Shown here: positions 8,545 through 60,619 of the stretch, piece after piece | How positions within the stretch are numbered: position 1 is the first letter of the stretch | Layout of the letters: every line of letters begins with the position of its first letter | Source: a virus | Taxonomy: Duplodnaviria; Caudoviricetes | Strand: one strand, 5' to 3' | Length of the DNA stretch: 64,000 nt | Virus record (IMG/VR): IMGVR_UViG_3300042691_019112 | Location: 1,197 to 65,196 of that record | The notes under the pieces: generated by a model | Databases searched by the model: none | The model's input: only the letters and a program-made list of their open reading frames with translations | Told to the model about the DNA's origin: nothing | Made by a program: the position numbers and the translations under genes

Positions 8545-8545
8545 C

Positions 8546-9850: not shown

Positions 9851-9866
9851 ACCCAAAACCAATAAT

Positions 9867-10052: not shown

Positions 10053-10065
10053 ACCCAATAAGACA

Positions 10066-10517: not shown

Positions 10518-10518
10518 C

Positions 10519-11281: not shown

Positions 11282-11298
11282 CATAGGCAACTCAAGCG

Positions 11299-11330
11299 AA
11301 AGCCTCCTACTTAGGGGGCTTTTTCTTTTT
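11299..11330. terminator. terminator between convergent operons
   Basis: AAAGCCTCCT-actt-AGGGGGCTTT plus T run. Confidence 0.65.
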
Positions 11331-12629: not shown

Positions 12630-12656
12630 ACCTTTGTCGTGTAAACAAAGATAGCG

Positions 12657-12920: not shown

Positions 12921-13001
12921 AAAGCCAAAGGGCTGACATTTCTGCCAACCCTTGGACGACGCAGGAGCCACAAGCACCCGCGACAAAGGTATGCTGTGCG
13001 C

Positions 13002-13319: not shown

Positions 13320-13699
13320 GGCCTAATGTCTAAGTTATCGTGAATGCGTGTGACGCTTTTTATGTAGTCACGAGGTATCCACCTACTTGAGGTGACATGG
13401 TAAGAATCATTGAACAAGTAGCATTCGTGTACCGTTTCCTGCCCGTTATGTAAACAGGTTACGCGGTACTGGTTCTTGGGGTTGAATCTTGCGTAAAAGT
13501 GCCGACATTGCTCATTTTCGAGGGTAAAACCGTGGCATTTCTGCACGTGTTCAAAGAACTGCTTTCGCTCATTTTCGGTCATGGCGTGGTAATGCTCATC
13601 TGAAAAGCTATCGAAGCAAGCAGAACGGGCTATCGGGCGAGGTGGTATAACCGCTTCGGCCAACCACATTAGGTCGAAAAAGTCTATTTTGAAGCTCAT
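13316..13699 (-). CDS. hypothetical protein
   Basis: 127-aa ORF, ATGA-coupled. Confidence 0.7.
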   Translation of the reverse strand: MSFKIDFFDLMWLAEAVIPPRPIARSACFDSFSDEHYHAMTENERKQFFEHVQKCHGFTLENEQCRHFYARFNPKNQYRVTCLHNGQETVHECYLFNDSYHVTSSRWIPRDYIKSVTRIHDNLDIRP

Positions 13700-27252: not shown

Positions 27253-27973
27253 GGATTTAGTGAAAGCCCAAGACGGCAAACTCACATGGCGGTTAGCATC
27301 AGAGATAATACGCAATGTAGGCGTAAAAACCCTGCATAAAAACATCGGCATCGAAGCCATATATCTCATAAGCTACACCAACGCCTCTACATCAGTAAGC
27401 CACAACAGCTTCTACTCCCCCTTCCGTAGTGCCTTCAAGAAAGCAAGGCTATTCACCACATTCAAAAGACCTAAGCTCAACCGCTTCAAAGGCCAAAGCG
27501 ACGACGAACTACCCAAGTATGGCCTTCGCATGAGCCAAGAAGAGCTTGTGGCCTTCATTCAAAAGCACCGCGTTAACAAGGTTACATACAAGGATATTGC
27601 AGCCATGCTCAACATCTCGTCCGCCAGCCTATACCGTTATTCAGGCGGCTACTCCGACGGTATCAAGCACCTGCGTAACCAGCATTACAAGTCGCCTAAC
27701 GTACCGCGAAAGTTCGACAACTCGATTGTACGACATAGGGTGGAGAAGCCCGAATGTGAGGCTTTGCGCTTGTATAAGGATAAGTTTATGTCGGATATAC
27801 CCAACATTACGGAAGCAGATGTGGCCTTCATCAAAGCACGATACAGGGCGCATTTGACAGGCGACTTTAGGGATTTGCCACGTCACTACCAGCATCGTAG
27901 GCGCGTGGAGCTTAACTGCAATAAACTCGGTTGGACTGAACCTGTACGATACGAATGGCAGAAAGCAGTATGA
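27233..27973 (+). CDS. HTH-containing protein
   Basis: TYKDIAAMLNISSASLYRY. Confidence 0.65.
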   Translation: MTKDQFEDLVKAQDGKLTWRLASEIIRNVGVKTLHKNIGIEAIYLISYTNASTSVSHNSFYSPFRSAFKKARLFTTFKRPKLNRFKGQSDDELPKYGLRMSQEELVAFIQKHRVNKVTYKDIAAMLNISSASLYRYSGGYSDGIKHLRNQHYKSPNVPRKFDNSIVRHRVEKPECEALRLYKDKFMSDIPNITEADVAFIKARYRAHLTGDFRDLPRHYQHRRRVELNCNKLGWTEPVRYEWQKAV

Positions 27974-28647
27974 TAACAGGCTACAAGGACAAGCACGAAT
28001 ATACCGATGAGCGCGGGATTCATTCCGTTGTTTACCTCATGGACTGCATGGATTTAATGCAGCAATTGCCCGATAAATCAATCCAGCTTGCTTGCGTTGA
28101 CCCTCCTTATGGGATTGGGGTTAATATATCAATGGGAAGAAGAAAGGGTGATAAAAAAAGCGATTACCATAAATTTTACGGTAAAGATTTAAGCATACCG
28201 CCAAAAGAGTATTTTGATTTTTTAAAGAAAGTTTCTGTTAATCAGATTGTTTGGGGTGGTAATTATATGACAGAATATCTTCCACCTTCATCATGCTGGC
28301 TTTTGTGGGATAAATTATTTTCTGAAGATGTAACCTTTGCTCAATTTGAATTAGCATGGACTTCTTTTGATTCAAGCGCAAAAAAATTCGACAAGCACCC
28401 TGCAGAAGCTAACCGCATTCACCCAACCCAAAAACCGACCGGTCTTTATAATTGGATTTTTGCACGATACGCAAAAGAAGGCGATACCATCTTAGACACT
28501 CACTTAGGTAGTGGCTCCAGCCGCATTTCAGCCGCTAAGGCAGGACTTCCGTTTATAGGTTGTGAATTGGATAGCGAGTATTTCTACCAGCATTGCAAGC
28601 GATTTGACGCATTCACAGCGCAAAAAACGATACTATTCCCAAAGTAA
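27970..28647 (+). CDS. N6-adenine or N4-cytosine DNA methyltransferase (beta class)
   Basis: DPPY, HPTQKP, ILDTHLGSGS, GCELD. Confidence 0.9.
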   Translation: MITGYKDKHEYTDERGIHSVVYLMDCMDLMQQLPDKSIQLACVDPPYGIGVNISMGRRKGDKKSDYHKFYGKDLSIPPKEYFDFLKKVSVNQIVWGGNYMTEYLPPSSCWLLWDKLFSEDVTFAQFELAWTSFDSSAKKFDKHPAEANRIHPTQKPTGLYNWIFARYAKEGDTILDTHLGSGSSRISAAKAGLPFIGCELDSEYFYQHCKRFDAFTAQKTILFPK

Positions 28648-28686: not shown

Positions 28687-31600
28687 TTATCGCCTCTTAC
28701 GAAGCAGCTCCATCTCGTCAATAGCGAAGTCCTCACTATCAAACCCAGCAGCCTCCGCAGCATCAGGGTTCCTATTCATGCTCACCCTAAAGTGCGCACG
28801 CTTCCTCGCATCAGCCTTAACGCCCTTCAACACCTTACCCACGTAGTTCTCCTTAATCATATCAGGCGTAATCTCAAAGTCTAAGTCAAACAGCTTCTTC
28901 TCCATCTCCGCATACTTAGCCCTACTCGCCTCATCCTTAAACACAGGGATACCATCCTCAACCCTATCCAGCTTCTTACGTAGCTTATACACCTCGCCAA
29001 AAGCCTCTATCAACTCCACATGAGGTACTAATCCCTCTCTTGTATAGTCCGCACTTAGCTTCTTATACAGCTCATACTCCGTATCGTTCATAGGGCGCGA
29101 TTCCATAGTGTTGTAGTTCACGATACCTACTTCCGGCACTTTCGGCACTCCCACGCTAACACCTGCTTCGGTAAAAGCCTTATACAACCTACCTACTACC
29201 GACGTATCTTCTTCCATCGTTTCAAACGGCAACACCGCCTGCTTCTCGGTTATAGGCATACCCAAGCTGTTATACACCACCCCATACTCACCCCTGATAA
29301 CAGGTATCGTAGTACCAACACGCATGAGGCTATTCTTCAACCCTGCCTCCAGTCCACCGTAATCCTTAGACCTCGACAGGTTGCCTCTTTTAGGCTCTTC
29401 TACCATCTCGTAGAACTGCCTCATGCCTTGCTGCCATAACCCCGAACCGACAGGCGTTAAGGTCATCACCTTGCGGATAGTGGATTCGGTAAGTTCTTGC
29501 GGTATGCTCCTGCCTTTTGTTGTAACTACCGCAGGGTTAATCAAACCTACAAGGCCGACCATATTACCCCACCATGTACCATCGTTGATATATTTGGCAA
29601 GTCGGCTTAAAACAAGCATGGCAACATTCTCACCCTCCTTAGCTCCATATCGCTTGTAATCCATAAGACCCCCATAGAAAGCTAAAATGGGAGCAATAGG
29701 CCAGTCTTTGTAGCTGATACGGGTATCGCCAATCTTCACCGAGTACTCCATATATCCCGGTATCTCCCTGTTCTTGTTGTAGTCGTAAGTACCGCCAGCC
29801 GTAATCTCCATCGTCTGCTCTTCATCCTCTCCGTTGTCGAACATCATCAAGGCCATTATCAAAGCTGTACCCATCATACCTTTGGCTAACACCTCATACC
29901 TTTCGTAGCCTGCCATCTCCTTAGAGTATTTAGCGAAGGGGCTTCCTGCATTAGCCTTCTTGCCTAAGCCACCGATAACGGACGTTTCACCCATGATACC
30001 ACGGACTAACCCCCAAGGCGTTGCGTCTATCTGTTGGTTAAGCACGTTGATAGGTATGTTAACGAAAGGAATGATATACTTGAGCAAAGGTATCTTAGCC
30101 CTCCACCTGTTAAGCCACCTTGATAGCAGCCCTAATGTGCCTTCGGGTACGTAGTTATAGGTGAGCATTGCACCTTGCCTGCTTGCGTCGGCTAACATAC
30201 CTGCATCACCCATCCTCTCCCTGAAAGCCTGCATATACTCACGTTGCAACTGCTTCATCTTAACCTTCCCAATAGTCTTACCTTGAGCTGCAAGGTCTTT
30301 TTGCGCCTCCGCTAAGAACTTGGCCATATTGGGTTGGTCGTTGAATAGGTAGTTCTCTTGGGCGTATTGCATCACCTCTTTAGATGTAACCTTACCACCG
30401 CCTTTCCTCTCTTTGACCGCTTGGTATGCAGCAATAACAGCGTCGGTGTATAAAGCACTCTCCCTGCCTGCACCAAAGAAGAGAACGTCGGTAGCGGCTA
30501 AAAGCCGTGGCATATACTTAGCGACAGGATATGTTCCTGCTGTTGCCACCCTAAGTACTGCATTACCTACCTTTTTCCACGCTTCTGCATCACCACTAAC
30601 AGGCATCATGTCCATAACCTCCTTGAAGCTCTTGCGCTCGATAAGCCTACGTGGCTCAACACCAAAGCCTCGGTCGTACTGCTTACCGCTAACAATAACA
30701 TCCTTAGCGTGTTCCAAGTTATTAGCAACACCCTGTATAAAGCCTACCAACCCTTGTGAAGCAAGTTTGAAATCCTTAGTGTTATAAAGCAGGTAGAAAA
30801 ATGCGGGAAACTGCTTAGTAAGCGTATTATACACAAGGCCAAAGGCGTTACGTGCCGACGTGCTAAAGCCTGACAGCATACTACCAAACCACACGTCCTC
30901 TAAGTACTGCATAACGGTATCGCCACCAGTACTGTTAGCCACGTAGTCGGCCATATCCTGCAAAGCCTGCGTCCGCTCACCCTCCGTCTTGGCCTCATCA
31001 ATAGCCTTCCTGTAATCCGTAACCTTAGTGTCGAAGTCGGAAGGTAACTCCGTGCCTATAACCTCACCCAAAGCATTCTTCACGGCTTTGTCAACCGGAT
31101 AACCCTTCTTGATAAGGTCTAACAGCTTGGCCGATATAGCCTCTCTCTCTTCTTTGGTTAGTGGCGTACCATCAACTCTCGCCTTGGCCAGCTTATTGAT
31201 AATCGCCTCAACCGCTTTCTTCTTGGCATCTTCGACCTTCTTGTTTACATAGTCGTCGATAGCCCTTGCGATACTGTTGGCTTGCTCTTGAGTGAGGCCA
31301 TCAATATCGGAATGTAGTTGCTGGGCTAAGGTCTTTCCGATAAGGTTGTTAGGGTTATGCTCTTGCACCACCTTACGTACCTGCACCCTCAAGTCGCTAA
31401 GCGTCCGCTTGACAAAAGCCTCTTTCTCCTTCTCCGTTAGGTTGTCGATGTTCTTAGCTTCGTCTATCTCCGCTTGCTTCACGTCAGATAGCATCTCTTC
31501 AATCTTAGCGCGGAAGTCGTCGCTTTGTTTGTCGGTGAAGGTCTTAGCTTCTTCGGGACTTAGCGTGTTTATAGCGGCTTTGTTCGCGGCTTCCATAGCC

Positions 31601-34600
31601 TTGTTTACCGCTTGAGCGAAGGAAGCACCGCCTTTAACCGCTACGATAGCTGCGTCTATACCTGCATTCCACACCAATACGAAAACGCCTCCCGAATACA
31701 TCTTACCGCTAACGTCGGCTTTCAGCTTCTCCAGCTTCTCGATAGCCTTATTACGCACTTTTTTTATCGCCTCTGCGCGTGTTTTAGCTATCGCCTTCTC
31801 GTTGCCTTCGGAAGCCCTACGACTGTTGCCTTGCATCTGATTGAAGGCTACCTCCATCGCTGCTTCTACGGGCTTGGACGTTACCGCCTCCCTACGTGCA
31901 TTCTTGACTGCCGTGTCGTATTCGGCAACCACATCTACAATGCGATTCCTTGCTTTCTCCCACCGCTTCATGACGATAGAGTGGGCTATCTGACGCATGG
32001 AAGCACTTGCGGTAGATGCAGGCATCAACTCTAAGAAGCGAAGGAAGCTAGTAGCCTGACCAAAGTCTGTACCCCTCGTTCCGATATAAGCAAGCACTTC
32101 GTCGCGCTGTTCGATGTACTTATCCTTTTTTGATGGATCTGTTTCCTGCTCCGCAAGTTGGTTGAGGTGCGACGCATACATGATGGACAAGGCCATCTTG
32201 ACTGCTGGGTGAACGCTGTTGTCGCGGCTTATCAATACCGCTACCGCGTCGGGGTTGTTAAGTTCCGCCCATATAGCCTTGGCATCAGCTATCAGTTTCT
32301 CGTCGGGGTAAGTGTCGTATAACAAGATGTCACGACCATGCTTGTCTTCAATCTTGGTTATGCTGTCCTTAACACCTTGTGGAAGGTTCTTGATGAAGCC
32401 CCTCTCTTTCTTCTTTCCAGTAGGACCAAACCTTGTAGCATCGAAGTCGTCATCGTCTGATTCAGGTTCGGGCTTAGGTTCGGGTTCAGGCTTAGGGTTG
32501 GAAGCGTCGTAGTATTCCGCAAGCATATCTTCCGTTGGATTCTCGTTGTCGTCGTCCATGAAGTGCTGCGCGGCTTTGTATATACGCCTCATAGCGTCGT
32601 TCATGCCTTTGTTCCGCTCTTTGAGGTACTGCTCAAGGTCGGATAAAGTGCGGATAGTGCCGTTCTTGATTAGGCGAATGAGGGCTTTGAGTGCGGCAAT
32701 ATCGGCTTTGGCTTGCTGGTATGGGTCGGATATGATGCCCATATTCTGAAAACCTTTGAAGTAGTCGCGCAACGCTTGCTTATCCGCTTCAATCTGCTTG
32801 TCGATAGGCATATCTAAATACTTCTGCGCCTTCATTAGATTGTCCATATAGGACTTGAAGGCAGCAACAAACTTATCATTCAGTTCGGCAATGGTATTGT
32901 TAACGATGGTTTCAGCTAACAAAGGGGTTGTACCTCTAACCTCCTCTGCTCTTTTATATGCTTCATCTAACGCTTTAGATTCATATTCTGGCATCTTACC
33001 CACCATATCAATAGCATCGAAGGTGAGTTTATCTTTAATGAAAGCCGCGTATTTATCCTTCTCCTTTTGGTCGAGTTCAATATCGGTAAAAGCACTATTG
33101 AAGTTTCGTATCGCATTACTTACGGCATCATCAAACAGCTTAATCAACTTTCCTGCTGCTTCTTGCGCCCCTTTGTCTTTGTTCGCCTTAGCCTGCTCAA
33201 GCATCTTCTTGGCCTGCTCAACGTTGGCTTTATTAGCCACAAAGTCGGCAATAACGCCTAAGTCGAAATAGGGTGCAGGGAGTGTACGTAGTGAGGTTAT
33301 GGCGGATTTGGTGCGCACACCACCCTCCACGCTTTTAGGCATGGCGTTAACCATCTTCAAGGCTTCGTTAGGGTCGGACAAGTTCAAGTCGTAAACGCTA
33401 TTGCCTACCTTAACCGTTATTAAAACACCTTTTTGATGATATTCATCAAGGTCGTCACGGAATTTGTATCCAGAAACGTATGTCTTAACTCTATCAATAG
33501 CCTTAGCGTCTAATCCTGCATCGCGTAACGCTTGGGCTGCTGCTTCGTAATCATCAATCCTTATGTAGCCATTCTCTTTCTTGCTATCAGGAAACTTCTC
33601 ATGCAGGATAGCCACCGCCTTACGCACCGCCTCCTGCACCGCCTCCGTGATAGCCTTGTTCTTAGCCTTGGCCTCCTTGGCGGTAATCTTCGCTAACGTG
33701 CCGCCTAACTCTTTGGCTGCCTCTGCTTGGGCGACCGCTTCGTCGATAAGTCGGTCTGCTCCTGCGATAACTTCATTGAGTTCAACTTCGTCTGCGCTGT
33801 CAGCCTTGCTCTCAAGGCTCTCAACAATACGTGTTCTTCCATCGGTTACTTTTTCTTTGGTTTTGCTTTTACCTTTTCCGGCAGTTTTTTTAGGTTCTGC
33901 TTGGGGTGTTCCTCCCTCCACCTTTTCGCCATCTCTGGCTTGTTGGCCTGCATCCACGCCAACTGCTTCTTGCTTCTGAACGGCATTTATATTTTTTGGT
34001 TTGGTTAAATCATCTCCTTTGAACATAGAAGAGTAAATAGAGCGCATCTCATCGTTGAGCTTAATATCTATTTCGCTATCTACGATTCCATTGTAAATAC
34101 TTGTAAGCCATTGCTTAAACTTTTCAAAAACCTTATTTAGTTCAGATATTGGAGAATTACCCTCTGATAAATACTTCTCAAATCCCCTTGCAAAGTATTC
34201 ACTTGCTTCTGTGTTCCACTCTTTCGTTCCTGCGTTTCTTAATACAACAGACTTTTCAGTATCAGTGAGGTAGTGTTCAAATACATGAGCCAACTCATGA
34301 AGAGGAGTGGAAACATTTGGACTTGTGAGTGCATAGATTGTAGCTTGTCCATCCATAGCTATCATCATTGCACCTTTAGCACTTACAGCATCTCTTTGAA
34401 ATCTTATTGCATCTTCTATGGTTACTGCATTTTCATCAAATACTACATAATTGAAGCCTTTTTTATCGCTATTCGATGCGCTTATTGCTCTTGCTACACT
34501 ATCGGTAGGATACTTTATGCCATCTATTCCTGCGCGAAGAAGAAATAGAGATGCTTCCTTTTGGCTTCCATATATGCTTTCTAATAACCTATAAACCTGC

Positions 34601-35529
34601 TTTCCTTCACTATCATAGCTATCTTCTGTTGCAGATTTAATTTGCTTATACCCAAATGAATCAACCTTGCGTTCCGCCTGTAATTGTTTTATTATTTTTT
34701 CCTGTTGGTCTTTAGAGAAAGGTTTATTCCATTCTAACCAACTGTATTGTTCAGGCGTTTTCCCTTTGTGAATTGCGACTTTATACAGATTGCGCTTAGG
34801 AGTTACTTTTACATTAGTTGCGTTACTTATCAATAAAGAATCCTCCTTAGTGATGTAACCACCATCAAGAGCTTTCTCAATAGCCCTTTCTGTAAATGCA
34901 CTTTTATTTAATGGCTGACCTGGAACATAGCTTTGGTACATAGAAATCCATCCCTTTAGCGTTCCGTCTGGTATTTCTACTCCATCTATTTCTATATCGT
35001 ACTCTCTCGCCAATTCATCAGCATAACCTTTGGCTATACTTTCTACATCTGTAAAATATAACCCCCAACCAAACATTTGTGCGCCTTCTCCGGCACCCAT
35101 GTATTTGGTTGAAAACTTATCAAACATATAAGGGCTTCCATGCCAAGCATCTACTTGCATTTTTACGCCTTTTGGTAAGTCTTGTAATGTTGATTTCTCA
35201 AACTTTAGCTTACTATATATTTCAGACTTAGGAACGCCTGCACGCTTAGCCATTGCTCCTATCATTTTATCCATAGCGATAGCTGATGCTAAAGATTCAA
35301 CCCTATTAAGTCCAAATAATACTCTATTTGCGTTATACAAATCGCGCATATTTTGAACAGAAGTAGATGTCTTAGATGCTAAAAAGGTAATATCTACCTC
35401 TTGCTTCTGAACGGCATCTTTACTCTTTTTAGCTTTCCAAAACTCTGGGTTATTCAACAAATAAAGCCGCATCTCGTCATACGATAGCGGCTTGTCACTC
35501 CCTTCAATAAAAAACTCGCAAGCCTTCAT
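28687..35529 (-). CDS. giant polyvalent virion (ejected) protein, 2280 aa, with ADP-ribosyltransferase-like and zincin domains
   Basis: AWHGSP...FGWGLYFT...GIDGIKY...YVVFD; PLHELAH...EYFARGFE; long helical C-terminal part. Confidence 0.85.
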   Translation of the reverse strand: MKACEFFIEGSDKPLSYDEMRLYLLNNPEFWKAKKSKDAVQKQEVDITFLASKTSTSVQNMRDLYNANRVLFGLNRVESLASAIAMDKMIGAMAKRAGVPKSEIYSKLKFEKSTLQDLPKGVKMQVDAWHGSPYMFDKFSTKYMGAGEGAQMFGWGLYFTDVESIAKGYADELAREYDIEIDGVEIPDGTLKGWISMYQSYVPGQPLNKSAFTERAIEKALDGGYITKEDSLLISNATNVKVTPKRNLYKVAIHKGKTPEQYSWLEWNKPFSKDQQEKIIKQLQAERKVDSFGYKQIKSATEDSYDSEGKQVYRLLESIYGSQKEASLFLLRAGIDGIKYPTDSVARAISASNSDKKGFNYVVFDENAVTIEDAIRFQRDAVSAKGAMMIAMDGQATIYALTSPNVSTPLHELAHVFEHYLTDTEKSVVLRNAGTKEWNTEASEYFARGFEKYLSEGNSPISELNKVFEKFKQWLTSIYNGIVDSEIDIKLNDEMRSIYSSMFKGDDLTKPKNINAVQKQEAVGVDAGQQARDGEKVEGGTPQAEPKKTAGKGKSKTKEKVTDGRTRIVESLESKADSADEVELNEVIAGADRLIDEAVAQAEAAKELGGTLAKITAKEAKAKNKAITEAVQEAVRKAVAILHEKFPDSKKENGYIRIDDYEAAAQALRDAGLDAKAIDRVKTYVSGYKFRDDLDEYHQKGVLITVKVGNSVYDLNLSDPNEALKMVNAMPKSVEGGVRTKSAITSLRTLPAPYFDLGVIADFVANKANVEQAKKMLEQAKANKDKGAQEAAGKLIKLFDDAVSNAIRNFNSAFTDIELDQKEKDKYAAFIKDKLTFDAIDMVGKMPEYESKALDEAYKRAEEVRGTTPLLAETIVNNTIAELNDKFVAAFKSYMDNLMKAQKYLDMPIDKQIEADKQALRDYFKGFQNMGIISDPYQQAKADIAALKALIRLIKNGTIRTLSDLEQYLKERNKGMNDAMRRIYKAAQHFMDDDNENPTEDMLAEYYDASNPKPEPEPKPEPESDDDDFDATRFGPTGKKKERGFIKNLPQGVKDSITKIEDKHGRDILLYDTYPDEKLIADAKAIWAELNNPDAVAVLISRDNSVHPAVKMALSIMYASHLNQLAEQETDPSKKDKYIEQRDEVLAYIGTRGTDFGQATSFLRFLELMPASTASASMRQIAHSIVMKRWEKARNRIVDVVAEYDTAVKNARREAVTSKPVEAAMEVAFNQMQGNSRRASEGNEKAIAKTRAEAIKKVRNKAIEKLEKLKADVSGKMYSGGVFVLVWNAGIDAAIVAVKGGASFAQAVNKAMEAANKAAINTLSPEEAKTFTDKQSDDFRAKIEEMLSDVKQAEIDEAKNIDNLTEKEKEAFVKRTLSDLRVQVRKVVQEHNPNNLIGKTLAQQLHSDIDGLTQEQANSIARAIDDYVNKKVEDAKKKAVEAIINKLAKARVDGTPLTKEEREAISAKLLDLIKKGYPVDKAVKNALGEVIGTELPSDFDTKVTDYRKAIDEAKTEGERTQALQDMADYVANSTGGDTVMQYLEDVWFGSMLSGFSTSARNAFGLVYNTLTKQFPAFFYLLYNTKDFKLASQGLVGFIQGVANNLEHAKDVIVSGKQYDRGFGVEPRRLIERKSFKEVMDMMPVSGDAEAWKKVGNAVLRVATAGTYPVAKYMPRLLAATDVLFFGAGRESALYTDAVIAAYQAVKERKGGGKVTSKEVMQYAQENYLFNDQPNMAKFLAEAQKDLAAQGKTIGKVKMKQLQREYMQAFRERMGDAGMLADASRQGAMLTYNYVPEGTLGLLSRWLNRWRAKIPLLKYIIPFVNIPINVLNQQIDATPWGLVRGIMGETSVIGGLGKKANAGSPFAKYSKEMAGYERYEVLAKGMMGTALIMALMMFDNGEDEEQTMEITAGGTYDYNKNREIPGYMEYSVKIGDTRISYKDWPIAPILAFYGGLMDYKRYGAKEGENVAMLVLSRLAKYINDGTWWGNMVGLVGLINPAVVTTKGRSIPQELTESTIRKVMTLTPVGSGLWQQGMRQFYEMVEEPKRGNLSRSKDYGGLEAGLKNSLMRVGTTIPVIRGEYGVVYNSLGMPITEKQAVLPFETMEEDTSVVGRLYKAFTEAGVSVGVPKVPEVGIVNYNTMESRPMNDTEYELYKKLSADYTREGLVPHVELIEAFGEVYKLRKKLDRVEDGIPVFKDEASRAKYAEMEKKLFDLDFEITPDMIKENYVGKVLKGVKADARKRAHFRVSMNRNPDAAEAAGFDSEDFAIDEMELLRKRR
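33846..33986 (-). CDS. overprinted small basic protein (46 aa)
   Basis: Hand-translated MPFRSKKQLAWMQANKPEMAKRWREEHPKQNLKKLPEKVKAKPKKK*, A-rich leader. Confidence 0.7.
   Translation of the reverse strand: MPFRSKKQLAWMQANKPEMAKRWREEHPKQNLKKLPEKVKAKPKKK
33968..35417 (-). mobile_element. in-frame AT-rich module bounded by 19-bp direct repeats
   Basis: TCTTGCTTCTGAACGGCAT at 33968-33986 and 35399-35417, 1431 bp apart. Confidence 0.65.
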
Positions 35530-36011
35530 TATCCTTTAAGGTATTCGTCAAACAAAATAACACCCTCCTTACCACTCGCAATACTCAACCTGCTGATAAG
35601 GTCTCCATACTCACCCACACTCTCCCTCTGCTTCTCTACAAACCACAATACAGCCTGCTTCACCGATACCGACGATTCATCCCATATCTTCTCATACAGG
35701 CGAAGTAAGTCTAACTCCATGTCGTAGGCATCTTGTAAGATACCCATAAGTTCCTCGGATTCAAACTCAACCTCTTCAATCATAGGCATCTCGGCTTCGT
35801 CGCCAAAGTCGTTCATCACGTCGCGTAACCGCTTGTAGTGGTCAATCTCCTGCGCTGCCTCTTGTTCAAAGAAGGCTTGCGCACCGAAGAGGCCGTGCTT
35901 TTGGGTACACGATGCAGCGTACAGGTAGAAGTGGGAAGCGTACAGCTCGGATTGTACGGCTCGGTTTAGGGCTTTGCGCTCCTTGTCTGTGAGTAATGAT
36001 TTTATGGACAT
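35529..36011 (-). CDS. ferritin-like protein
   Basis: LN.....ELYAS..Y, G...FF..EA.QE..H, E, WFVEKQRES. Confidence 0.85.
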   Translation of the reverse strand: MSIKSLLTDKERKALNRAVQSELYASHFYLYAASCTQKHGLFGAQAFFEQEAAQEIDHYKRLRDVMNDFGDEAEMPMIEEVEFESEELMGILQDAYDMELDLLRLYEKIWDESSVSVKQAVLWFVEKQRESVGEYGDLISRLSIASGKEGVILFDEYLKG

Positions 36012-38701
36012 TGCTTGCGTATTTTACCCTCCTTTTCCAAGGCGGTTATTATGGATTCAAATTTAGCGGTTATGCGTGTCATGTCGGCTACTACGTCTTT
36101 GCCCACCCTTTCGGATAGAGCTTGCCTCGCCTTTCGCCCTGCTTGACCTTTGGCTTCGATAGCGGCAAAGTCGGCAGCGGTTACTTGCCCTTGGGCTTCT
36201 TGGGGACGCAGTTCGGGACTTTCTTGCCGCCCTTGGTCTTGCTGCCCACCATCTCGTAACCCTTCCAACAAGGGTTCTTCGTTTGCTTTTTCATCGGTAT
36301 TTGGTTTATTCTTTTGCTTTTCAAAATTGCTTCTTATTGCTTGGTAAAATCCAGCTCTTGTACTTTCTGGAACATAAGAAATAAGCACATTTTCTAAATA
36401 AGAGTTTGCCCTTATTTCCCCTCTCTCTTCTTTGGTTTCTATCCATCCTTCAATAAGCTGACTTCTTACATCGTCATTGCTTTCAGGAAACCTCCTTTTG
36501 AAATAAGATTCTATTTCATCAATCAAGTAGTCGGCATACTCATTGCCGGTGTGCTTTTGATTAATTTGACCTGATTCCTCTTTTGTATCAATTTTTACCT
36601 CGACAGGCAACTCTACCTTTTCTGCTTTGTCTTGTTTTGATGCTTCGTAGTCATCAATACTTCTTTGTATGGCATCTCTTTCGGCAATAGCGTTTTCATA
36701 TTCTTTTTTAGCCTTTCCAACCAAACCTTTTTTGCCCATTTGCATTTTTAGGGCGTTTATAGTAAAGTCAAGAGTTGCTCTTTTTGCGTAAAGTTCTGCT
36801 ACCTCTTTAGGCATCGCTTCCGCCTTCGCCTCGGTAACAGGGGCTTCTGCTTGCGGTGTTACCACCTCAACAGGGGTTTCTGCCACGGGTGCTTCTACAA
36901 CAGGTGTTTCTACAACAGGTGTTTCTACAACAGGTGTTTCTACAACAGGCTCAACAGGTGTAACAACAGGCTCTTCTTCAACAGCAGGTAGGTCGTCCGC
37001 AATACCAAGCAAGTCGTCATCACCAACAGCTACATCTTCCTCGGTAGCCACAACAGGTGTAACAACAGTAGGCGTACTCGCTATCCGCTTCAACTCCGCC
37101 TCTATCTCCTTCTTGCGCTTCTCGATACCTTTCTTCTTAGCCGTATTCGCCTCTTTCAGCAAGCCCAACTTGTCCGCCTTAGTGACCTTATCCAACTGCG
37201 CCACCTCGTCCGCAATATCTTCCAACTGCTCGATAAGCGGCTGCATAAGCCCTAACTGCCCTTCGTCGAAAGCACCAACACTTTTGTACCCCTCCAATGT
37301 TTCCTTAGCCCTCTTCTGCGCCTCGGTAAGCGGTAACTCCTCTGTCACCTCGGTAGCCACCACATTATCCTGCGACAGGTCATCAGCTAAAGCGGTGAGC
37401 GCATCTTCCGCCTCGTCGGTAGCTTGGGTCATGGCAGCCATAGGCGTATCGTCAACAGGCGGTGTTGTAGGCGGTACATTATCCAATGGATTAGCAGGTG
37501 GTGCATCCGGCGGAACGAAAGCCGCTTGTCTTTCCTCGGTAGTGGCAATAGTAGGAACAGGGTCTATGTCGTCCCTCGTGTCTATACCTTGAATACCACC
37601 AAAGATACCACCACCGATAGCACCTCCTAAGAAAGCCTCTCCTGCACGCGAAAGCACCTCGCCAGTAACATCGTCAATAGTACCACTTGGGTCAAACGTC
37701 CTACTGCCCGTAGCGGCATCGAAAGCCAACTGCGTACCCGACTGTCCTAACGATGTAAGACCTTCTTCTGTTCCTTCTCTAACTACGCCTTGAGCGATAC
37801 CAACGCCTCTCTTAGCAGCTAAGGCAGCAATCTTGCCCATGACAGCCTTAACGCCTTGCTCTACACCTTCTTTGCCGTACTTCTTAGCCGCCTCTTTTAC
37901 CTCTCTCGAAATCCACGACTTGGGTATCTTGGTCAAAGCGTCAAGACCTAAACTTTCGGCAGCAGCCTCGATACTACCCATGATAGTACCATAAGCGGTT
38001 GCTTGGTTATCGGTAAGTCCTAACTCTCTACCCATAGCGTAATTGTCGGATAGCGAAGAAGCGAAGTATGTACCTCCTAATGCAGCAGCAGAAGCCCCAC
38101 CCGTAACAGGTGCGGTGATAGCGGCAATAGCGGTAGGTAATATCTGCGCGGTTGCAGCCGTCCATGCGTCTAAGTCGGAAGGGTCGCGAAATACGTCAGT
38201 AGCGGACTTAGCGGACAACTTGGGAAAATCTTGTTTCAATTCCTTTTGCTGCGCCCTTGTTTCGTCGGCCATGCCCATGCGTGCCACCTCTCCCATCATA
38301 CGACCTTGCTCGGTAAATGGGTTCATGTAGGTCTGCATCTGTTCAAAGCCCCTTACAGCACTTTCGCCCATTTCTTTGAGGCTTCTACCCATGTAATCCA
38401 ACCTGCCCTCCTTCTTGGTAATATCAGGCATCGTACCTGTGGGTACGGTAGAAGGCTTAGGCAAGCCCCTCTCCTCCGCTTGCGCTTCGATAGCACCCAA
38501 AGCACCACGCATCTGTGTAGGCTTAGGCGGTGCAAGGCTCACCTTGGGTTGTGGTGCGGCATCTTGAGGTTCTAATGAAAGTTCGGGGTCTTTCTTGACC
38601 GCGAAGTCAACAAACTCTCTAATGCGTGTATCGTCAAGCCCATCCGCTTTCATCTTGCGGATAGCATCAAATAACTTCTGCTGCTTAGGTGTGTAACCCA
38701 T
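36002..38701 (-). CDS. large internal virion protein, 899 aa
   Basis: Glycine-rich hydrophobic helices, EG.EE motif, VVETP repeats, ends KQCP. Confidence 0.8.
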   Translation of the reverse strand: MGYTPKQQKLFDAIRKMKADGLDDTRIREFVDFAVKKDPELSLEPQDAAPQPKVSLAPPKPTQMRGALGAIEAQAEERGLPKPSTVPTGTMPDITKKEGRLDYMGRSLKEMGESAVRGFEQMQTYMNPFTEQGRMMGEVARMGMADETRAQQKELKQDFPKLSAKSATDVFRDPSDLDAWTAATAQILPTAIAAITAPVTGGASAAALGGTYFASSLSDNYAMGRELGLTDNQATAYGTIMGSIEAAAESLGLDALTKIPKSWISREVKEAAKKYGKEGVEQGVKAVMGKIAALAAKRGVGIAQGVVREGTEEGLTSLGQSGTQLAFDAATGSRTFDPSGTIDDVTGEVLSRAGEAFLGGAIGGGIFGGIQGIDTRDDIDPVPTIATTEERQAAFVPPDAPPANPLDNVPPTTPPVDDTPMAAMTQATDEAEDALTALADDLSQDNVVATEVTEELPLTEAQKRAKETLEGYKSVGAFDEGQLGLMQPLIEQLEDIADEVAQLDKVTKADKLGLLKEANTAKKKGIEKRKKEIEAELKRIASTPTVVTPVVATEEDVAVGDDDLLGIADDLPAVEEEPVVTPVEPVVETPVVETPVVETPVVEAPVAETPVEVVTPQAEAPVTEAKAEAMPKEVAELYAKRATLDFTINALKMQMGKKGLVGKAKKEYENAIAERDAIQRSIDDYEASKQDKAEKVELPVEVKIDTKEESGQINQKHTGNEYADYLIDEIESYFKRRFPESNDDVRSQLIEGWIETKEERGEIRANSYLENVLISYVPESTRAGFYQAIRSNFEKQKNKPNTDEKANEEPLLEGLRDGGQQDQGRQESPELRPQEAQGQVTAADFAAIEAKGQAGRKARQALSERVGKDVVADMTRITAKFESIITALEKEGKIRKQCP
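36181..36294 (-). CDS. overprinted small basic protein (37 aa)
   Basis: Hand-translated MKKQTKNPCWKGYEMVGSKTKGGKKVPNCVPKKPKGK*, A-rich leader. Confidence 0.7.
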   Translation of the reverse strand: MKKQTKNPCWKGYEMVGSKTKGGKKVPNCVPKKPKGK

Positions 38702-55905: not shown

Positions 55906-58125
55906 TTAATTGCCCTTGTTTATGTTAGCGTTAGCCTTCTGCTCTGCTTGCATCGCTTTTATCTGTAACTCCATGCGTCGAAGCTGGGTATCTATCTCCG
56001 CCTGTGTAGCTTTCAGCCTGATGTCGTTAGCGGAACGCTGCCCTTGTGCCTCAATCCTTTCACGCTGCATCTCTTTCTTGGTGTTGTCCTGCATCTCGGC
56101 AATCTGTGCCTTCTGACTGATAGCCTCCTGCTCCATAGCTGTCTGCTCTTGTGCCGCCTGTGCCGCCATAGCTTCTTTCCGCTCCATAAGCACCATATAC
56201 TTCTTTACACCCTCTCTTACGTCGTTGGTGTTGATAAGCATCATGTACTCTGGACCCGTCAACTGCCCTGACTGCCATGCAGATGCAAGCACCCCTTGGA
56301 ACTGCTGCATATTCCATGCGAACTCCGGCCTTGTTTCCACATAGATAGCGTAATCCTGTAAGCGCATATCTTCATCCGCAAACAGTATGTCCACGCCCAT
56401 ATTGCCTATGATATTCGCGTACTTCTCTTTATTGAAAGGCCACGTAACCTTGATAGCCTCCGCGTGCCGTTGCCACATCGCATTCTCGAACTCATTGAAG
56501 GTTATCATCAAGCCTTCTGTCATAAACGAACTTTGGCTTATAGCCGCTTGTGTCACACCTACCAAACTCGATGCCTTCTGAAAGCCCGAACGTGCATTGT
56601 TTATACCCGTAATCTCTTGCGCCTGACCATCTACGTAGTTGGCAAGCTCGATATACGTGTTGATAGCCGACGTTAGCGACGTGTCAAAAGGTGTAAACAT
56701 ATTGCTGCCAACAGGCGCATCGTTACCCTCCGCAGCCGTGGAGTTGATAAAGGCGATACCTGCCGTCTTAAGGTAGTACAACACATCATCCAAAGCAAGG
56801 TTGCTGGGCTTGTATCTTAGGTCATAGGTAAATCCCTTACGTCCTGCCGTAGAAATCTCCACCTCAATGCGGTACATGAGCAAGTCCTTAAACTCCTGCA
56901 ATGATTCAATCTCTTGTGACTTAGATACCGTCTTGAAGTTGATATACGCATGGCTCACCACGGTATAGCTAAAGCGCGAAGCGGAAGGATTGTCAATACT
57001 GCGAGGTTGGTTAGGCACTTCGCCCCAATTCTTGACTATACCGCCACCGATAAGTGTGCCACGACGTATGTTCTCGATATGCACCTCTTTAATCTTGGCT
57101 GTGCCATCTTCCAACTGACGCTTGCGCACCTTATCCTCCTCATTAAGCATCTTGATATGCTTGTTGCCGTACTTGTCGGTACTCTCCATGACCCTCACCT
57201 GCTTGGTGTCGCGCCACTCCGCATTCACCACCAACACGTGCTGCACGTTGTTGATAAGGTTGAAAGGCTCTAAGTACAGTAAGTTGTTGTAGTTAGCACC
57301 GAACCACACCTGCATAGGCGCACCTGCCCTCGCCACCTCCTGTATCTCCTCGGTCGTAAGCCCGTACATCTCCGCAGCCTTAGCAACCGGATAATACTGC
57401 CAATCGCCAATGAATTGCGCATTGGACATCATATCGTCGAAGCTGATAGGGTCGATGATAGTCTGTCGTGGGTCTATAACCCTCGTTTCAGGTATGCCAT
57501 TGATAACGTCACACTTAGTCACTATCCTTCCCGAAATAAACAGGTCGCGAAGCATACGCATACGCATCATCTTGTAACGCATACGCAAGGCATCACTCTT
57601 CAAACAAGCCAACATCACTTCTTCCAAGTTCTCCTTGTACTTGTTCTTCATGTAGTAGTTCAGCTCCTCTTCATCCCTCGGAAGGTCTTTAGGGAAGGTG
57701 ACATTCATAGCCTCGGCATCCAAAGTACCCTCTTCGTACAGGTCGCGCATATACATGGCTGCCGCTACTTGCGCCCTCGCCATCATCTTGCGCGTTACCG
57801 CATCCCTGCCCACCGTTTGGCAGCTAAAGTCATAACCCCTCGTCATGGCCTCCCCTACCAACAGTTCCACCTTGTTGCGAATCATGTTGTAGTTGCGCCA
57901 CTTAGCAGGTAACGACTTGCCGTCATTAGTGCCTTGCAGATACGGGTACTTGTCCGCTATGCTGTAATCGCTGTTGTAGAAGTCATACGACGCAGACATA
58001 GCCGTATAAGAGTTGGGAATGTAACCCGTGACTATCGCCCGATACAATATGGCATTGAGCCAGTTCTTGTGGTACGTTTCGTCCTTTTGGTTTTCGGGTA
58101 TAAGTATATTGGGTACAACCTGCAT
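55906..58125 (-). CDS. portal protein (crAss-like)
   Basis: 739 aa; IPE..KD..Y, N.IRNKVELLVGE, EITGI..AR.G; follows the terminase. Confidence 0.85.
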   Translation of the reverse strand: MQVVPNILIPENQKDETYHKNWLNAILYRAIVTGYIPNSYTAMSASYDFYNSDYSIADKYPYLQGTNDGKSLPAKWRNYNMIRNKVELLVGEAMTRGYDFSCQTVGRDAVTRKMMARAQVAAAMYMRDLYEEGTLDAEAMNVTFPKDLPRDEEELNYYMKNKYKENLEEVMLACLKSDALRMRYKMMRMRMLRDLFISGRIVTKCDVINGIPETRVIDPRQTIIDPISFDDMMSNAQFIGDWQYYPVAKAAEMYGLTTEEIQEVARAGAPMQVWFGANYNNLLYLEPFNLINNVQHVLVVNAEWRDTKQVRVMESTDKYGNKHIKMLNEEDKVRKRQLEDGTAKIKEVHIENIRRGTLIGGGIVKNWGEVPNQPRSIDNPSASRFSYTVVSHAYINFKTVSKSQEIESLQEFKDLLMYRIEVEISTAGRKGFTYDLRYKPSNLALDDVLYYLKTAGIAFINSTAAEGNDAPVGSNMFTPFDTSLTSAINTYIELANYVDGQAQEITGINNARSGFQKASSLVGVTQAAISQSSFMTEGLMITFNEFENAMWQRHAEAIKVTWPFNKEKYANIIGNMGVDILFADEDMRLQDYAIYVETRPEFAWNMQQFQGVLASAWQSGQLTGPEYMMLINTNDVREGVKKYMVLMERKEAMAAQAAQEQTAMEQEAISQKAQIAEMQDNTKKEMQRERIEAQGQRSANDIRLKATQAEIDTQLRRMELQIKAMQAEQKANANINKGN

Positions 58126-60075: not shown

Positions 60076-60619
60076 TGCGTTTGTTTGACCTCTCCCATGC
60101 AGATTCTTCCTCGGCATCTTCATCTGCCGACATACCACCGCTAAATTCCACGCCTAACTTCTCGTCGATAAGGTCTTCTAACACCCTTCTCTCTTTAGCA
60201 AGCATGGTTAATGACTTGGCTAAGTCGCCTATATCCTTAGCGGAGGTCGTTTCGTCGAGGTTGTTAAGCCTATCCCTGATAACCCCTTCGCCCGACTTGA
60301 TAGCCGATAAAGAAGCCTCTTCCGATTCGATGCCTTGCAAGCCTTTGTACTTCTCTATGTAGTCTTCGACCTTAGAAGCCCTACCGTTAAGTATGGCCTC
60401 CCCTTCTTTGGTGAATAGTCCACCTTTGGGTGCGAAGCCTGCTGCCATGAGTGCGCGTTCCCGCCTTTCGTAGTTGTCGAGCTTGCGGTATGGGCTGCGC
60501 CAGTCCGAATACAGAGCCACAAACTTCATCGTAGCGGACGAAGCCCCTGCAAACTCCTTCATGATACGCGCATGAGGGTTGTCTTCAAAGAAGTCCCTGT
60601 CCGATACCACAAACAGCAT
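60068..60619 (-). CDS. putative terminase small subunit
   Basis: Immediately upstream of terL; D..SPY motif, helical C-terminus. Confidence 0.5.
   Translation of the reverse strand: MLFVVSDRDFFEDNPHARIMKEFAGASSATMKFVALYSDWRSPYRKLDNYERRERALMAAGFAPKGGLFTKEGEAILNGRASKVEDYIEKYKGLQGIESEEASLSAIKSGEGVIRDRLNNLDETTSAKDIGDLAKSLTMLAKERRVLEDLIDEKLGVEFSGGMSADEDAEEESAWERSNKRNG

What the first reader, a model, noticed from the sequence alone, without database searches (positions are those of the whole stretch)
36181..36294. Second overprinted basic peptide with a CWKGY...VPNCVP motif
Seen: inside the 899-aa gene another frame reads MKKQTKNPCWKGYEMVGSKTKGGKKVPNCVPKKPKGK* after an A-rich leader. It again falls in a linker, just after an AT-rich stretch (about 36300-36800). 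From memory, CWKGY..VG.K.K.GK.VPNCVP occurs in head-associated proteins of T4-like cyanophages and in small phage ORFs. Two nested genes in neighbouring giant genes suggest a design principle more than chance.
Basis: partly seen in the sequence, partly recalled or inferred. Interest (0 to 1): 0.75.

Follow-up and report, generated by a model that had tools for sequence, protein, structure and literature searches.

The report
Small conserved gene hidden inside a phage giant gene
A 37-residue basic protein of a widespread but unnamed phage family is encoded in a second reading frame inside a linker of a large virion-module gene, and the pattern of mutations shows that the hidden frame, not the big gene's frame, is the one that selection protects there.

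Summary
On the minus strand, 36181..36294 is an ATG-to-TAA ORF of 37 codons. It lies in the +1 frame of the 899-codon ORF 36002..38701.

The peptide is not a chance ORF:
- It matches 8 PHROG families (best E 1.5e-8).
- It hits 3179 protein clusters.
- It keeps all 11 invariant residues of the family.

The same family occurs in three forms. In a sample of 121 instances, 97 are in-frame modules of long phage proteins, 21 are free-standing genes of about 35-60 aa, and 1 is nested. That nested case lies in the 4253-aa polyvalent protein gene of an unrelated phage.

In that second lineage, 3 of 3 substitutions inside the nested ORF are silent in the nested frame and change the host frame.

In the window, the nested ATG has the best start context of 655 internal ATGs. 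It also sits in one of the least structured spots.

My best reading is a separately initiated small gene that a giant ORF's linker has engulfed. Translation has not been shown, and the peptide's function is unknown; I infer a basic beta-hairpin.

The neighbouring nested ORF (33846..33986) belongs to a second family, which was nested in 62 of 120 sampled loci.

Earlier notes of this scan record the motif on other DNA, but not this nested arrangement.

The parts
36181..36294 (-). Nested ORF, 37 codons plus TAA: MKKQTKNPCWKGYEMVGSKTKGGKKVPNCVPKKPKGK. It belongs to the CW.GY...G.K.K....VPNC.P mini-protein family.
   Evidence: ORF; family matches; 11 of 11 invariant residues; AF2 beta-hairpin, residues 13-21 and 24-31, mean pLDDT 82.
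36295..36324 (-). A/C-rich, G-poor, unstructured leader of the nested ORF (…aaagaataaaccaaataccg ATG). It is the putative internal translation initiation region.
   Evidence: the PWM built from 48 gene starts scores it 8.32, rank 1 of 655 internal ATGs, above 94% of true starts (leave-one-out); the 60-nt MFE is -2.2 kcal/mol; only 3 of 655 internal ATGs are as open, and true starts average -4.9.
36002..38701 (-). Host ORF, 899 codons, in the structural gene block. It has no Pfam, PHROG or NCBIfam family. Its N-terminal part and its last 60 aa are conserved in P0004 and P0005.
36002..36180 (-). Conserved C-terminal domain of the host protein (VTAADFAAIEAKG…KIRKQCP). It shows that the host frame is read through and beyond the nested ORF.
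   Evidence: identical in P0004 and largely conserved in P0005 (many invariant columns from V840 to P899).
36300..36800 (-). AT-rich variable module of the host gene, directly upstream (5') of the nested ORF. P0004 has unrelated sequence in its place.
   Evidence: GC 0.29-0.40. (the alignment breaks between TEAKAEA and KPNTDEK). (X4 contig record 12 matches 36241-36307 and then diverges).
33846..33986 (-). The other nested ORF (46 codons, MPFRSKKQLAWMQANKPEMAKRW…), in the +1 frame of the 2280-codon gene. It is the sister case that supports the general pattern.
   Evidence: 47-aa free-standing homologue P0156, E 1.8e-6; 62 of 120 family instances nested; pN/pS 0.07 in the nested frame against 1.99 in the host frame.
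28687..35529 (-). 2280-codon neighbouring giant gene. It has a weak ART-PolyVal match below the Pfam cut-off and an HELAH motif.
35399..35417 (-). Second copy of the first 19 nt of the other nested ORF. The first copy is at 33968-33986, and the two flank an AT-rich module of the 2280-codon gene.
   Evidence: 2 exact matches in the window, 0 expected in 100 shuffles.

Best explanation
36181..36294 (-) is a functional small gene. It encodes a 37-residue, very basic protein of a widespread, unnamed phage mini-protein family (C-W-x-G-Y … G-x-K-x-K … V-P-N-C-x-P), predicted to form a single beta-hairpin carrying two conserved cysteines.

The gene has the architecture of the family's free-standing members: Met, a Lys-rich leader, the motif, a Lys-rich tail and a stop. 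It lies inside a larger ORF that reads through it in the -1 register, so the nested gene is at +1 to the host. In that register the Lys and Gly codons read as a polar Glu/Gln/Gly linker.

Shown:
- The motif is real and complete.
- The same out-of-frame arrangement exists in related and in unrelated phages.
- Within the overlap, selection acts on the nested frame and not on the host frame.

Inferred: ribosomes start independently at the internal AUG. In this phage, which lacks Shine-Dalgarno sites and whose start contexts look like those of Bacteroidota, that AUG has the A/C-rich, unstructured context of true starts. The large protein would be made from the same late mRNA.

Inferred with low confidence: the peptide binds nucleic acid or travels with the virion's internal proteins.

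Evolutionary reading (inferred): an older small gene was engulfed by a growing modular ORF. Its conserved DNA sits at a junction where modules are exchanged.
For: Family membership:
- PHROG E 1.5e-8; 3179 hits; 11 of 11 invariant residues.
- The motif is in frame in annotated cyanophage proteins, with 84% nucleotide identity over 75 nt to S-TIM54.

Not an assembly error: the host frame over the motif is kept in P0004. P0005, with the motif at another position in the gene, is compatible with all 11 invariant residues in the +1 frame. No compatible window occurs in 45,070 control residues.

Independent recurrence: L043/G001 carries MKKSAKKDPCWKGY…KKK* at +1 inside a 4253-aa polyvalent protein gene. 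No blastp similarity links the ORFs of the two phages.

Selection:
- Window against L043, 26 core codons: nested frame pS 0.73 and pN 0.16; host frame pS 0.30 and pN 0.26; differences by nested codon position 4, 4, 13.
- In situ, L043 against L148 (same host gene, 40 mismatches in 1185 nt): 3 of 3 substitutions inside the nested ORF are nested-synonymous and host-nonsynonymous. Outside it, 22 of 37 are host-synonymous. Only 18% of possible substitutions are nested-synonymous, so 3 of 3 has a probability of about 0.006.
- The single host-frame difference between the window and P0004 (Q>K) is, by the one-base path, GGC>GGA, silent in the nested frame (inferred, no DNA).

Start site:
- PWM rank 1 of 655 internal ATGs.
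- Local MFE -2.2; 3 of 655 internal ATGs are as open.
- The G001 nested ATG ranks 14 of 678.
- All 7 other contexts I examined from the 27 loci with the same ATGAAAAAR leader have the upstream gene's stop overlapping this ATG (ATGA). That shows the ATG serves as a start elsewhere.

Small form is common: 21 of 121 sampled instances are short free-standing ORFs. The nearest Atlas clusters are 35-39 aa with 50-116 members.
Against: - There is no RNA, ribosome or peptide evidence of any kind.
- The in-situ selection test rests on 3 substitutions in another phage lineage, plus 1 inferred substitution in the window's own lineage.
- The large window-L043 divergence could have built up while the copies were free-standing genes.
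- The PWM and MFE scores both largely measure A-richness. That is partly forced by the Lys codons of the leader and by the neighbouring AT-rich module, so the two scores are not independent.
- Elongating ribosomes on the host frame would compete with internal initiation.
- For this family nesting is rare (1 of 121 sampled instances).
- No function can be assigned: no Pfam or NCBIfam family, and no Foldseek PDB match better than E 1.8.
Confidence: 0.6

Rival explanations
1. Programmed +1 ribosomal frameshift. Ribosomes translating the 899-codon ORF slip at GAA AAA G, moving Lys-tRNA from AAA to AAG. They then finish in the nested frame. The product would be an ~800-aa protein that ends in the CWKGY mini-domain and lacks the C-terminal 60-aa domain, so it would resemble the many family members where the motif is in frame within a long protein.
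For: In 97 of 121 sampled instances the motif is an in-frame module of a long protein. A run of A (A5 in the window, A6 in L043) lies at the entry to the nested frame in both nested cases. The selection evidence does not separate this reading from internal initiation.
Against: - The same ATGAAAAAR is present in free-standing genes, where it is simply Met-Lys-Lys, so it is not specific to nested copies.
- No rare or stop codon follows the A run, and no upstream stimulator is evident.
- The ATG, the Lys-rich leader and the stop right after the Lys-rich tail match the free-standing gene architecture.
- The ATG has the best start context of 655 internal ATGs.
- The nested frame is closed 6-14 codons upstream of the ATG, which leaves a very narrow window for slippage.
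Confidence: 0.1
2. Untranslated passenger. The motif-coding DNA is a recently acquired or recombination-joint segment that landed out of frame in a tolerant linker. It looks conserved only because it is young, or because its DNA serves as a homology patch for module exchange.
For: - The ~94-nt segment 36196-36289 occurs at 80-90% nucleotide identity in many other contigs with unrelated flanks. Depth there is 8-44, against about 4-5 in neighbouring bins.
- It sits exactly at the border of a swapped AT-rich module.
- The sister nested ORF's first 19 nt are duplicated exactly at both ends of another AT-rich module.
- GC of the segment is 0.60, against about 0.46 for the genome.
Against: - In situ, 3 of 3 substitutions are silent in the nested frame.
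- Nested synonymous sites are saturated between the two nested lineages (pS 0.73), yet the ORF, ATG, stop and all invariant residues are intact.
- The start context is the best of 655 internal ATGs.
- In the sister family, 25 related pairs give pN/pS 0.07 in the nested frame and 1.99 in the host frame.
- A recombination-joint role is compatible with the segment also being a gene.
Confidence: 0.15
3. Sequencing or assembly artefact. The motif is really in frame in the 899-aa protein, and two compensating indel errors moved it out of frame.
For: The window is a metagenome-assembled virus record. Homopolymer runs flank the segment.
Against: - Independent assemblies give the same host-frame reading (P0004, P0005).
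- Three separate IMG/VR contigs of another phage show the same arrangement (L043, L133, L148).
- Logan contigs from other studies cover the junctions without indels (X9 records 27-28; table 4 lists no indel in 36100-36400).
Confidence: 0.01

Closest known systems
Lambda Rz/Rz1 spanin genes (Rz1 wholly embedded in the +1 frame of Rz); recalled, not checked in a call
   Same: A small phage ORF lies entirely inside a larger phage ORF, in the +1 frame. It has its own start codon, and both products are thought to be made from one late transcript.
   Different: - Rz1 is a secreted lipoprotein that works with the product of its host gene.
- Here the nested product is a basic two-Cys hairpin with no signal peptide.
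- Here the overlapped part of the host is an unconstrained linker.
- The nested family also exists as free-standing genes and as in-frame domains.
- No functional link to the host protein is shown.
Classical viral overprinting (phiX174 B in A, E in D; surveyed in PMC3494269, seen only as a search listing)
   Same: Two proteins are read from one DNA stretch in different frames, in a compact viral genome.
   Different: In overprinting, the nested frame is the young, de novo one. Here the nested frame is the old and widely conserved one (3179 clusters), and the host frame over it is the novel one, evolving neutrally (host pN/pS about 0.9). The large ORF has in effect overprinted the small gene.
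Polyvalent proteins of phages and conjugative elements (Iyer et al. 2017, PMC5512222; abstract start, two passages)
   Same: The second nested copy sits in a 4253-aa protein with LPD38, ART-PolyVal, ResIII, LPD23 and DUF6782 domains. The window's neighbouring 2280-aa gene has a weak ART-PolyVal match. These are modular giant genes with swappable modules.
   Different: The 899-aa host has no polyvalent-protein domain. In the paper's main text the words 'frameshift', 'overlapping', 'cysteine' and 'linker' occur 0 times, so hidden out-of-frame genes in linkers are not part of that description. Its supplements were not seen.
Programmed frameshift products of phage structural genes (lambda G/GT, T7 10A/10B); recalled
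   Same: An alternative C-terminus is read from a second frame of a virion-module gene.
   Different: Those are -1 shifts at defined slippery heptamers and give extended fusion proteins. Here there is no canonical signal, and the nested ORF has a complete gene architecture.
T4 internal head proteins and the 'cargo' modules noted earlier in this scan (e1-5961520, e1-5632935, e1-5341344; unchecked AI notes)
   Same: Small, very basic modules are associated with phage late and virion genes. Those notes list the same CWKGY…PNCVP module inside long modular proteins.
   Different: The nested peptide shows no capsid-targeting sequence and no protease sites. Neither packaging nor cleavage was tested.

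Membership tests
CW.GY…VPNC.P phage mini-protein / mini-domain family (unnamed; PHROGs 9737, 4359, 22379, 727 and others) | Significant profile match to the family | tested here: met
   8 PHROG families at E<=0.1, best at 1.5e-8 over residues 4-33; 3179 representatives at E<=1e-3.
CW.GY…VPNC.P phage mini-protein / mini-domain family | Invariant residues C, W, Y, G, K, K, V, P, N, C, P at fixed spacing | tested here: met
   all 11 invariant columns (C9 W10 Y13 G17 K19 K21 V26 P27 N28 C29 P31) and 5 nearly invariant ones are present in the window peptide.
CW.GY…VPNC.P phage mini-protein / mini-domain family | Free-standing small-gene architecture (Met, Lys-rich leader, motif, Lys-rich tail, stop) | tested here: met
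   the window peptide resembles L036 (39 aa), L067, L074, P0083 and others. In all 7 contexts examined, the upstream gene's stop overlaps the ATG.
Embedded (same-strand, out-of-frame) functional gene | ORF wholly inside a longer ORF that is itself a real gene | tested here: met
   the 899-codon host has conserved domains on both sides of the nested ORF in P0004 and P0005.
Embedded (same-strand, out-of-frame) functional gene | Purifying selection on the nested frame while it is nested | tested here: met
   3 of 3 in-situ substitutions (L043 against L148) are nested-synonymous and host-nonsynonymous, p about 0.006. One search gives pN/pS 0.22 for the nested frame and 0.88 for the host frame. The sample is small, and in the window's own lineage only one inferred substitution is available.
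Embedded (same-strand, out-of-frame) functional gene | Initiation-competent start site | tested here: met
   PWM rank 1 of 655, and only 3 of 655 internal ATGs are as unstructured. This is computational only.
Embedded (same-strand, out-of-frame) functional gene | Detected protein product or ribosome initiation | not testable with these tools
   No RNA holder was usable. Reads were laid on DNA contigs.
Programmed +1 frameshift site | Slippery P-site codon followed by a slow or stop codon, with a stimulator, conserved specifically in nested copies | tested here: inconclusive
   An A5/A6 run is present but is also in free-standing genes. The following codon is GCA or ATC, with no obvious pause signal.
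Polyvalent protein (Iyer et al. 2017), applied to the host gene | Presence of LPD or other polyvalent-protein domains | tested here: not met
   the 899-aa protein has no Pfam family at E<=0.1. Met for the G001 4253-aa host. The 2280-aa neighbour is below the cut-off (25.3 against 31.2 bits).

The most novel reading that the evidence does not exclude
Tailed phages carry a hidden layer of old, conserved small-protein genes in the +1 frame of linkers in giant virion or polyvalent protein genes and in other structural-module genes. There are at least two families: CWKGY…VPNCVP and MPFKS…WM.AN.PEMA..W. The big ORFs grew by reading through these small genes, because Lys-rich coding reads as a harmless acidic or polar linker one base over. 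The highly conserved DNA of the small genes also serves as the homology patch at which foreign modules are swapped in and out. One stretch of DNA would then be a gene, a linker and a recombination joint at once.
Probability: 0.35. Interest if true: 0.8.

Novelty: new variant of a known kind. Interest (0 to 1): 0.65.

Why it matters
Gene callers discard ORFs embedded in longer ORFs, so proteins of this kind are missing from phage annotation. The 37-aa ORF is absent from any family library with a name.

Here a well-conserved small-protein family can be followed through three states: free gene, in-frame domain and out-of-frame nested gene. This reverses the usual picture of overprinting, because the old gene is inside and the new reading frame is outside.

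The result also gives a concrete sequence rule for why such engulfment is tolerated: Lys and Gly codons read as Glu, Gln and Gly one base over. It places the nested genes at the junctions where modules of giant injected proteins are exchanged.

If the peptides are made, phage late operons encode more virion-associated or early-acting small proteins than are counted. Linkers of polyvalent proteins would then need to be searched in all frames. The sister family, nested in about half of the sampled loci, would be one of the most widespread overlapping gene pairs in tailed phages.

Tried and rejected
Chance ORF: rejected.

Sequencing error: rejected.

ATGA read-through origin: I first thought the host frame equals the frame of the upstream gene in the free-standing relative L036, so that loss of its TGA would create the fusion. 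Re-reading one search showed that L036's upstream gene is in the other frame (offset +1, not +2), so I dropped the idea.

Flanking direct repeats around the 36300-36800 module: none found. There is only a degenerate 19-nt copy of the nested leader, 31 nt upstream.

Bacteroidota -7 promoter (TAnnTTTG) just upstream of the nested ATG: not seen by eye in the sequence. No tool scan was made.

Relatives of the host gene in IMG/VR and JGI metagenome contigs: none found. tblastn of the 899-aa protein against phage records: no match. The last homologue search with residues 795-899 returned only P0004.

Expression: no RNA holder is listed as such.

Parts of the stretch without contig cover are not evidence of anything.

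Structure search: Foldseek against PDB gave 0 matches at E<=0.001. The best matches were defensin-like hairpins at E 1.8, and I treat them as meaningless.

Domain context: a Pfam scan of 10 long family members gave no family, apart from one hit below the cut-off.

tblastn of the peptide against phage records gave only partial hits at E 0.2-6. The haloarchaeal virus 'portal' and 'protease' rows there are too weak to use.

Literature: motif-string searches found nothing relevant. A concept search gave general overprinting papers only. These searches cover only the held library. Supplements are closed. The domain tables of PMC5512222 and any virion proteomics tables for S-TIM5-like phages, which I did not see, could bear on whether the mini-domain was already named or found in virions.

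Complex prediction, build_rna_model and Rfam were not used, because no question needed them.
Full report
**1. The observation**

On the minus strand, ATG 36294 to TAA 36181 reads MKKQTKNPCWKGYEMVGSKTKGGKKVPNCVPKKPKGK*. The ORF lies wholly inside the 899-codon ORF 36002..38701 (-), one base downstream of its frame: the host reads GAT GAA AAA GCA and the nested ORF reads ATG AAA AAG CAA. The segment is GC-rich (0.53-0.60 over 36100-36300). It follows a 450-nt AT-rich stretch with GC 0.29-0.40.

The window is nearly all of a 65,196-bp IMG/VR virus record with direct terminal repeats. The ORF sits in the structural block:
- terminase at 58150-60138;
- portal at 55906-58125;
- a 1428-aa virion protein;
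- then genes of 470, 899, 160 (ferritin-like) and 2280 codons.

**2. The peptide is a member of a real, large family**

- hmmscan against PHROGs gives 8 families at E<=0.1. The best is phrog_9737 at 1.5e-8. All have unknown function, and the match lies at internal positions of 190-490-residue profiles.
- Pfam and NCBIfam give nothing.
- phmmer against 1.84 billion cluster representatives gives 3179 proteins at E<=1e-3 and 25 at E<=1e-10. Lengths run from 44 to over 900 aa, often with 2-3 copies per protein.
- In a 44-sequence alignment of short members, the window peptide has all 11 invariant residues: C9 W10 Y13 G17 K19 K21 V26 P27 N28 C29 P31.
- The motif is in frame in annotated cyanophage proteins: S-TIM54 UYE97330 (104 aa) and S-CREM1_219 (783 aa). 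blastn finds 84% identity over 75 nt between window 36199-36273 and S-TIM54, the only relevant DNA match of the 4.5-kb query.
- AlphaFold2 with that alignment predicts one beta-hairpin (13-21, 24-31), with mean pLDDT 82 and 92-93 in the core. Foldseek finds nothing significant in the PDB.
- String searches of the paper library found no description of the motif.

**3. How the family is arranged elsewhere**

The 121 instances divide as follows:

| Arrangement | Instances |
|---|---|
| In frame, in open frames over 80 codons | 97 |
| Short open frame (up to 80 codons), no long frame over it | 21 |
| Short, cut by a contig end | 2 |
| Short and nested in a giant frame (L043) | 1 |

The short forms look like the window's ORF: Met, Lys-rich leader, motif, Lys-rich tail, stop. 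A second pattern for the ATGAAAAAR leader gave 27 loci. In all 7 contexts I examined, the upstream gene's TGA overlaps this ATG (ATGA), which is the usual mark of a coupled real start. The nearest relative of the window peptide, L036 (MKKQSKPTACWKGYEMVGTKKKNGKSVPNCVPKKPTKKK*), is such a free-standing gene. It shares sequence with the window even just past the stop codon. The ESM Atlas places the peptide next to clusters of 35-39-aa hypothetical proteins with 50-116 members (a lead only).

**4. The nested arrangement is not an error, and it recurs**

The 899-aa protein has two homologues.
- P0004 (958 aa) is nearly identical at both ends but carries an unrelated middle module in place of the AT-rich one. 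Its host-frame reading over the nested ORF differs by one residue (Q>K).
- P0005 (1180 aa) shares the N-terminal region and the last 60 aa. It carries VLEGLPSRRDESEGGQESPELRTQEAKQEE at a different place, before its own middle module. Decoding shows that this peptide can encode all 11 invariant residues in the +1 frame. No window in 45,070 residues of other stored proteins can do so.

L043 comes from a complete 57,671-bp phage (G001) with no blastp similarity to the window's ORFs. It has MKKSAKKDPCWKGYQAIGMKDKGGRKVPNCVPKKGTKKK* in the +1 frame of a 4253-codon ORF. That protein has LPD38, ART-PolyVal, ResIII, LPD23 and DUF6782 domains, so it is a polyvalent protein. Two further contigs, L133 and L148, carry the same arrangement.

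Logan contigs from four runs cover the window's junctions without indels. They also show the ~94-nt motif segment in many other contexts: depth is 8-44 there, against about 4-5 beside it.

**5. Which frame is under selection**

| Comparison | Nested frame | Host frame |
|---|---|---|
| Window vs L043, 26 core codons | pS 0.73, pN 0.16 | pS 0.30, pN 0.26 |
| L043 vs L148, inside the nested ORF | 3 of 3 substitutions silent | 3 of 3 change the residue (R>G, P>S, T>P) |

In the first comparison, 13 of the 21 differences fall at nested third positions. That divergence may predate nesting, so the second comparison carries more weight. L043 and L148 share the same giant gene at 96.6% identity (40 mismatches in 1185 nt). 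Outside the nested ORF, 22 of 37 differences are silent in the host frame. Only 18% of possible substitutions that do not create a host-frame stop are nested-silent, so 3 of 3 has a probability of about 0.006.

The window-P0004 difference, by the one-base path CAA>AAA, is GGC>GGA, silent in the nested frame (inferred; no DNA).

The host linker is therefore free to vary as long as it stays open, while the nested protein is conserved.

**6. How it is probably expressed**

Genes of this phage lack Shine-Dalgarno sequences and have A/C-rich leaders. G001 looks the same. This resembles Bacteroidota-type initiation, which is my inference; an earlier unchecked note, e1-6243251, says the same.
- A weight matrix built from 48 starts scores the nested ATG 8.32. 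That is rank 1 of 655 internal ATGs in 17 long genes, and above 94% of true starts.
- The 60-nt window around the nested ATG folds at -2.2 kcal/mol. True starts average -4.9 and internal ATGs average -11.7; only 3 of 655 internal ATGs are as open.
- The G001 nested ATG ranks 14 of 678.

The two measures are correlated, because both reflect A-richness. I therefore favour independent internal initiation. A +1 slip at GAA AAA G cannot be excluded. However, the same A run occurs in free-standing genes, and no pause signal is visible.

**7. Why a linker, and why here**

Read one base upstream, the AAR, GGN and CCN codons of the basic peptide become Glu, Gln, Gly and Arg. That composition is hydrophilic and typical of a linker.

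In most free-standing members this frame has stops within 7-28 codons. Openness is therefore specific to the nested copies and their nearest free relative.

The nested ORF abuts the border of the swapped AT-rich module. X4 contig record 12 diverges from the window at 36307.

In the 2280-codon neighbour, the first 19 nt of the other nested ORF occur twice exactly, 1431 bp apart, and bracket an AT-rich module. This was a lead from note e1-6243257, confirmed. Conserved small-gene DNA may therefore also serve as a recombination joint. This is inference.

**8. The sister case**

ORF 33846..33986 (MPFRSKKQLAWMQANKPEMAKRW…) has a 47-aa free-standing homologue at E 1.8e-6. A pattern for its family again hit the 120-locus limit.

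| Arrangement | Instances |
|---|---|
| Small ORF wholly inside an open frame of 300 codons or more, in the same +1 relation | 62 |
| Small ORF beside or overlapping a long open frame in the other (+1) offset | 1 |
| Other short ORFs | 37 |
| In frame, in long ORFs | 20 |

Of the 62 nested cases, 59 lie in frames of 345-445 codons, many of them related contigs. Three lie in giant frames of 1663, 1689 and 2339 codons.

Over 25 related pairs, which are not independent, pN/pS in the overlap is 0.07 for the nested frame and 1.99 for the host frame. The host flanks give 0.30. The nested peptide of one such locus matches phrog_1375 (E 5e-6), while its ~410-aa host matches nothing. Its start in the window ranks 30 of 655 by matrix and 9 of 655 by openness.

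**9. Verdict**

The finding is real, and its core interpretation holds. It is a conserved small gene embedded out of frame in a linker of a giant phage gene, and the arrangement recurs.

Embedded phage genes are known (Rz/Rz1, phiX174; recalled). The new points are:
- the polarity, with an old gene inside a newer unconstrained frame;
- the setting, in giant virion and polyvalent genes at module borders;
- the family, which is unnamed and is seen in free, fused and nested states.

Still unproven are translation, the mode of initiation and the function of the peptide. Supplements of papers were closed and not consulted.

Noticed in passing
window 33846-33986 (-); loci L157-L276: The other nested ORF (MPFRSKKQ…WMQANKPEMAKRW) belongs to a family that is nested at +1 in 62 of 120 sampled IMG/VR instances. 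Most sit about 80 residues into ORFs of about 400-445 codons with no PHROG match; three sit in giant ORFs. In the overlap, pN/pS is 0.07 for the nested frame and 1.99 for the host frame. This may be a very widespread unannotated overlapping gene pair.
   Followed up: partly
window 33968-33986 and 35399-35417 (-): An exact 19-nt direct repeat, equal to the first 19 nt of that nested ORF, brackets a 1431-bp AT-rich module of the 2280-codon gene that includes the HELAH motif (lead from note e1-6243257). It looks like a scar of module insertion at the nested gene.
   Followed up: partly
window 36300-36800 (-): This AT-rich module of the 899-codon gene is replaced by unrelated sequence in homologue P0004, and the break points lie next to the nested ORF. 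No flanking repeat was found.
   Followed up: partly
window 36272-36290 and 36303-36321: A degenerate 19-nt direct repeat (84% identity, 31 nt apart) copies the nested ORF's Lys-rich leader just upstream of its ATG. It may be a junction scar.
   Followed up: no
window 35529-36011 (-): A 160-aa ferritin-like / rubrerythrin-like protein (Pfam Ferritin, E 9.5e-13) is encoded between the two giant genes and overlaps the end of the 899-codon ORF by 10 nt. This is an unusual gene for a virion block.
   Followed up: no
window 36868-36949: 15-nt tandem repeats encode the (E)TPVV repeats of the 899-aa protein. Copy number differs in P0004 and in Logan contigs.
   Followed up: no
whole window; G001: Gene starts lack Shine-Dalgarno sites and lie in weakly structured A/C-rich pockets. 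The mean 60-nt MFE is -4.9 for 33 true starts and -11.7 for 655 internal ATGs. G001 has similar leaders.
   Followed up: yes
window 33705-33842 (-): An ATG at 33842, right after the stop of the other nested ORF and in the same +1 frame, has the second-best start score of 655 internal ATGs. It opens a 45-codon ORF (MEEHVLLRAL…) of unknown standing.
   Followed up: no
L130 (G001:19001-38000), ORF 592-13350 (-): A 4253-aa polyvalent protein (LPD38, ART-PolyVal, ResIII helicase, LPD23, DUF6782) in a complete 57.7-kb phage carries the second nested CWKGY gene. A 152-codon same-strand alternative-frame ORF also lies inside it, at record positions 27898-28356.
   Followed up: partly
Logan run X4, contig record 10: The loose ends of a 654-nt contig suggest one more small CWKGY ORF. 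It has an ATG, an in-frame stop three codons upstream and an open host-like frame upstream. This was read only from 23-30-nt loose-end strings.
   Followed up: no
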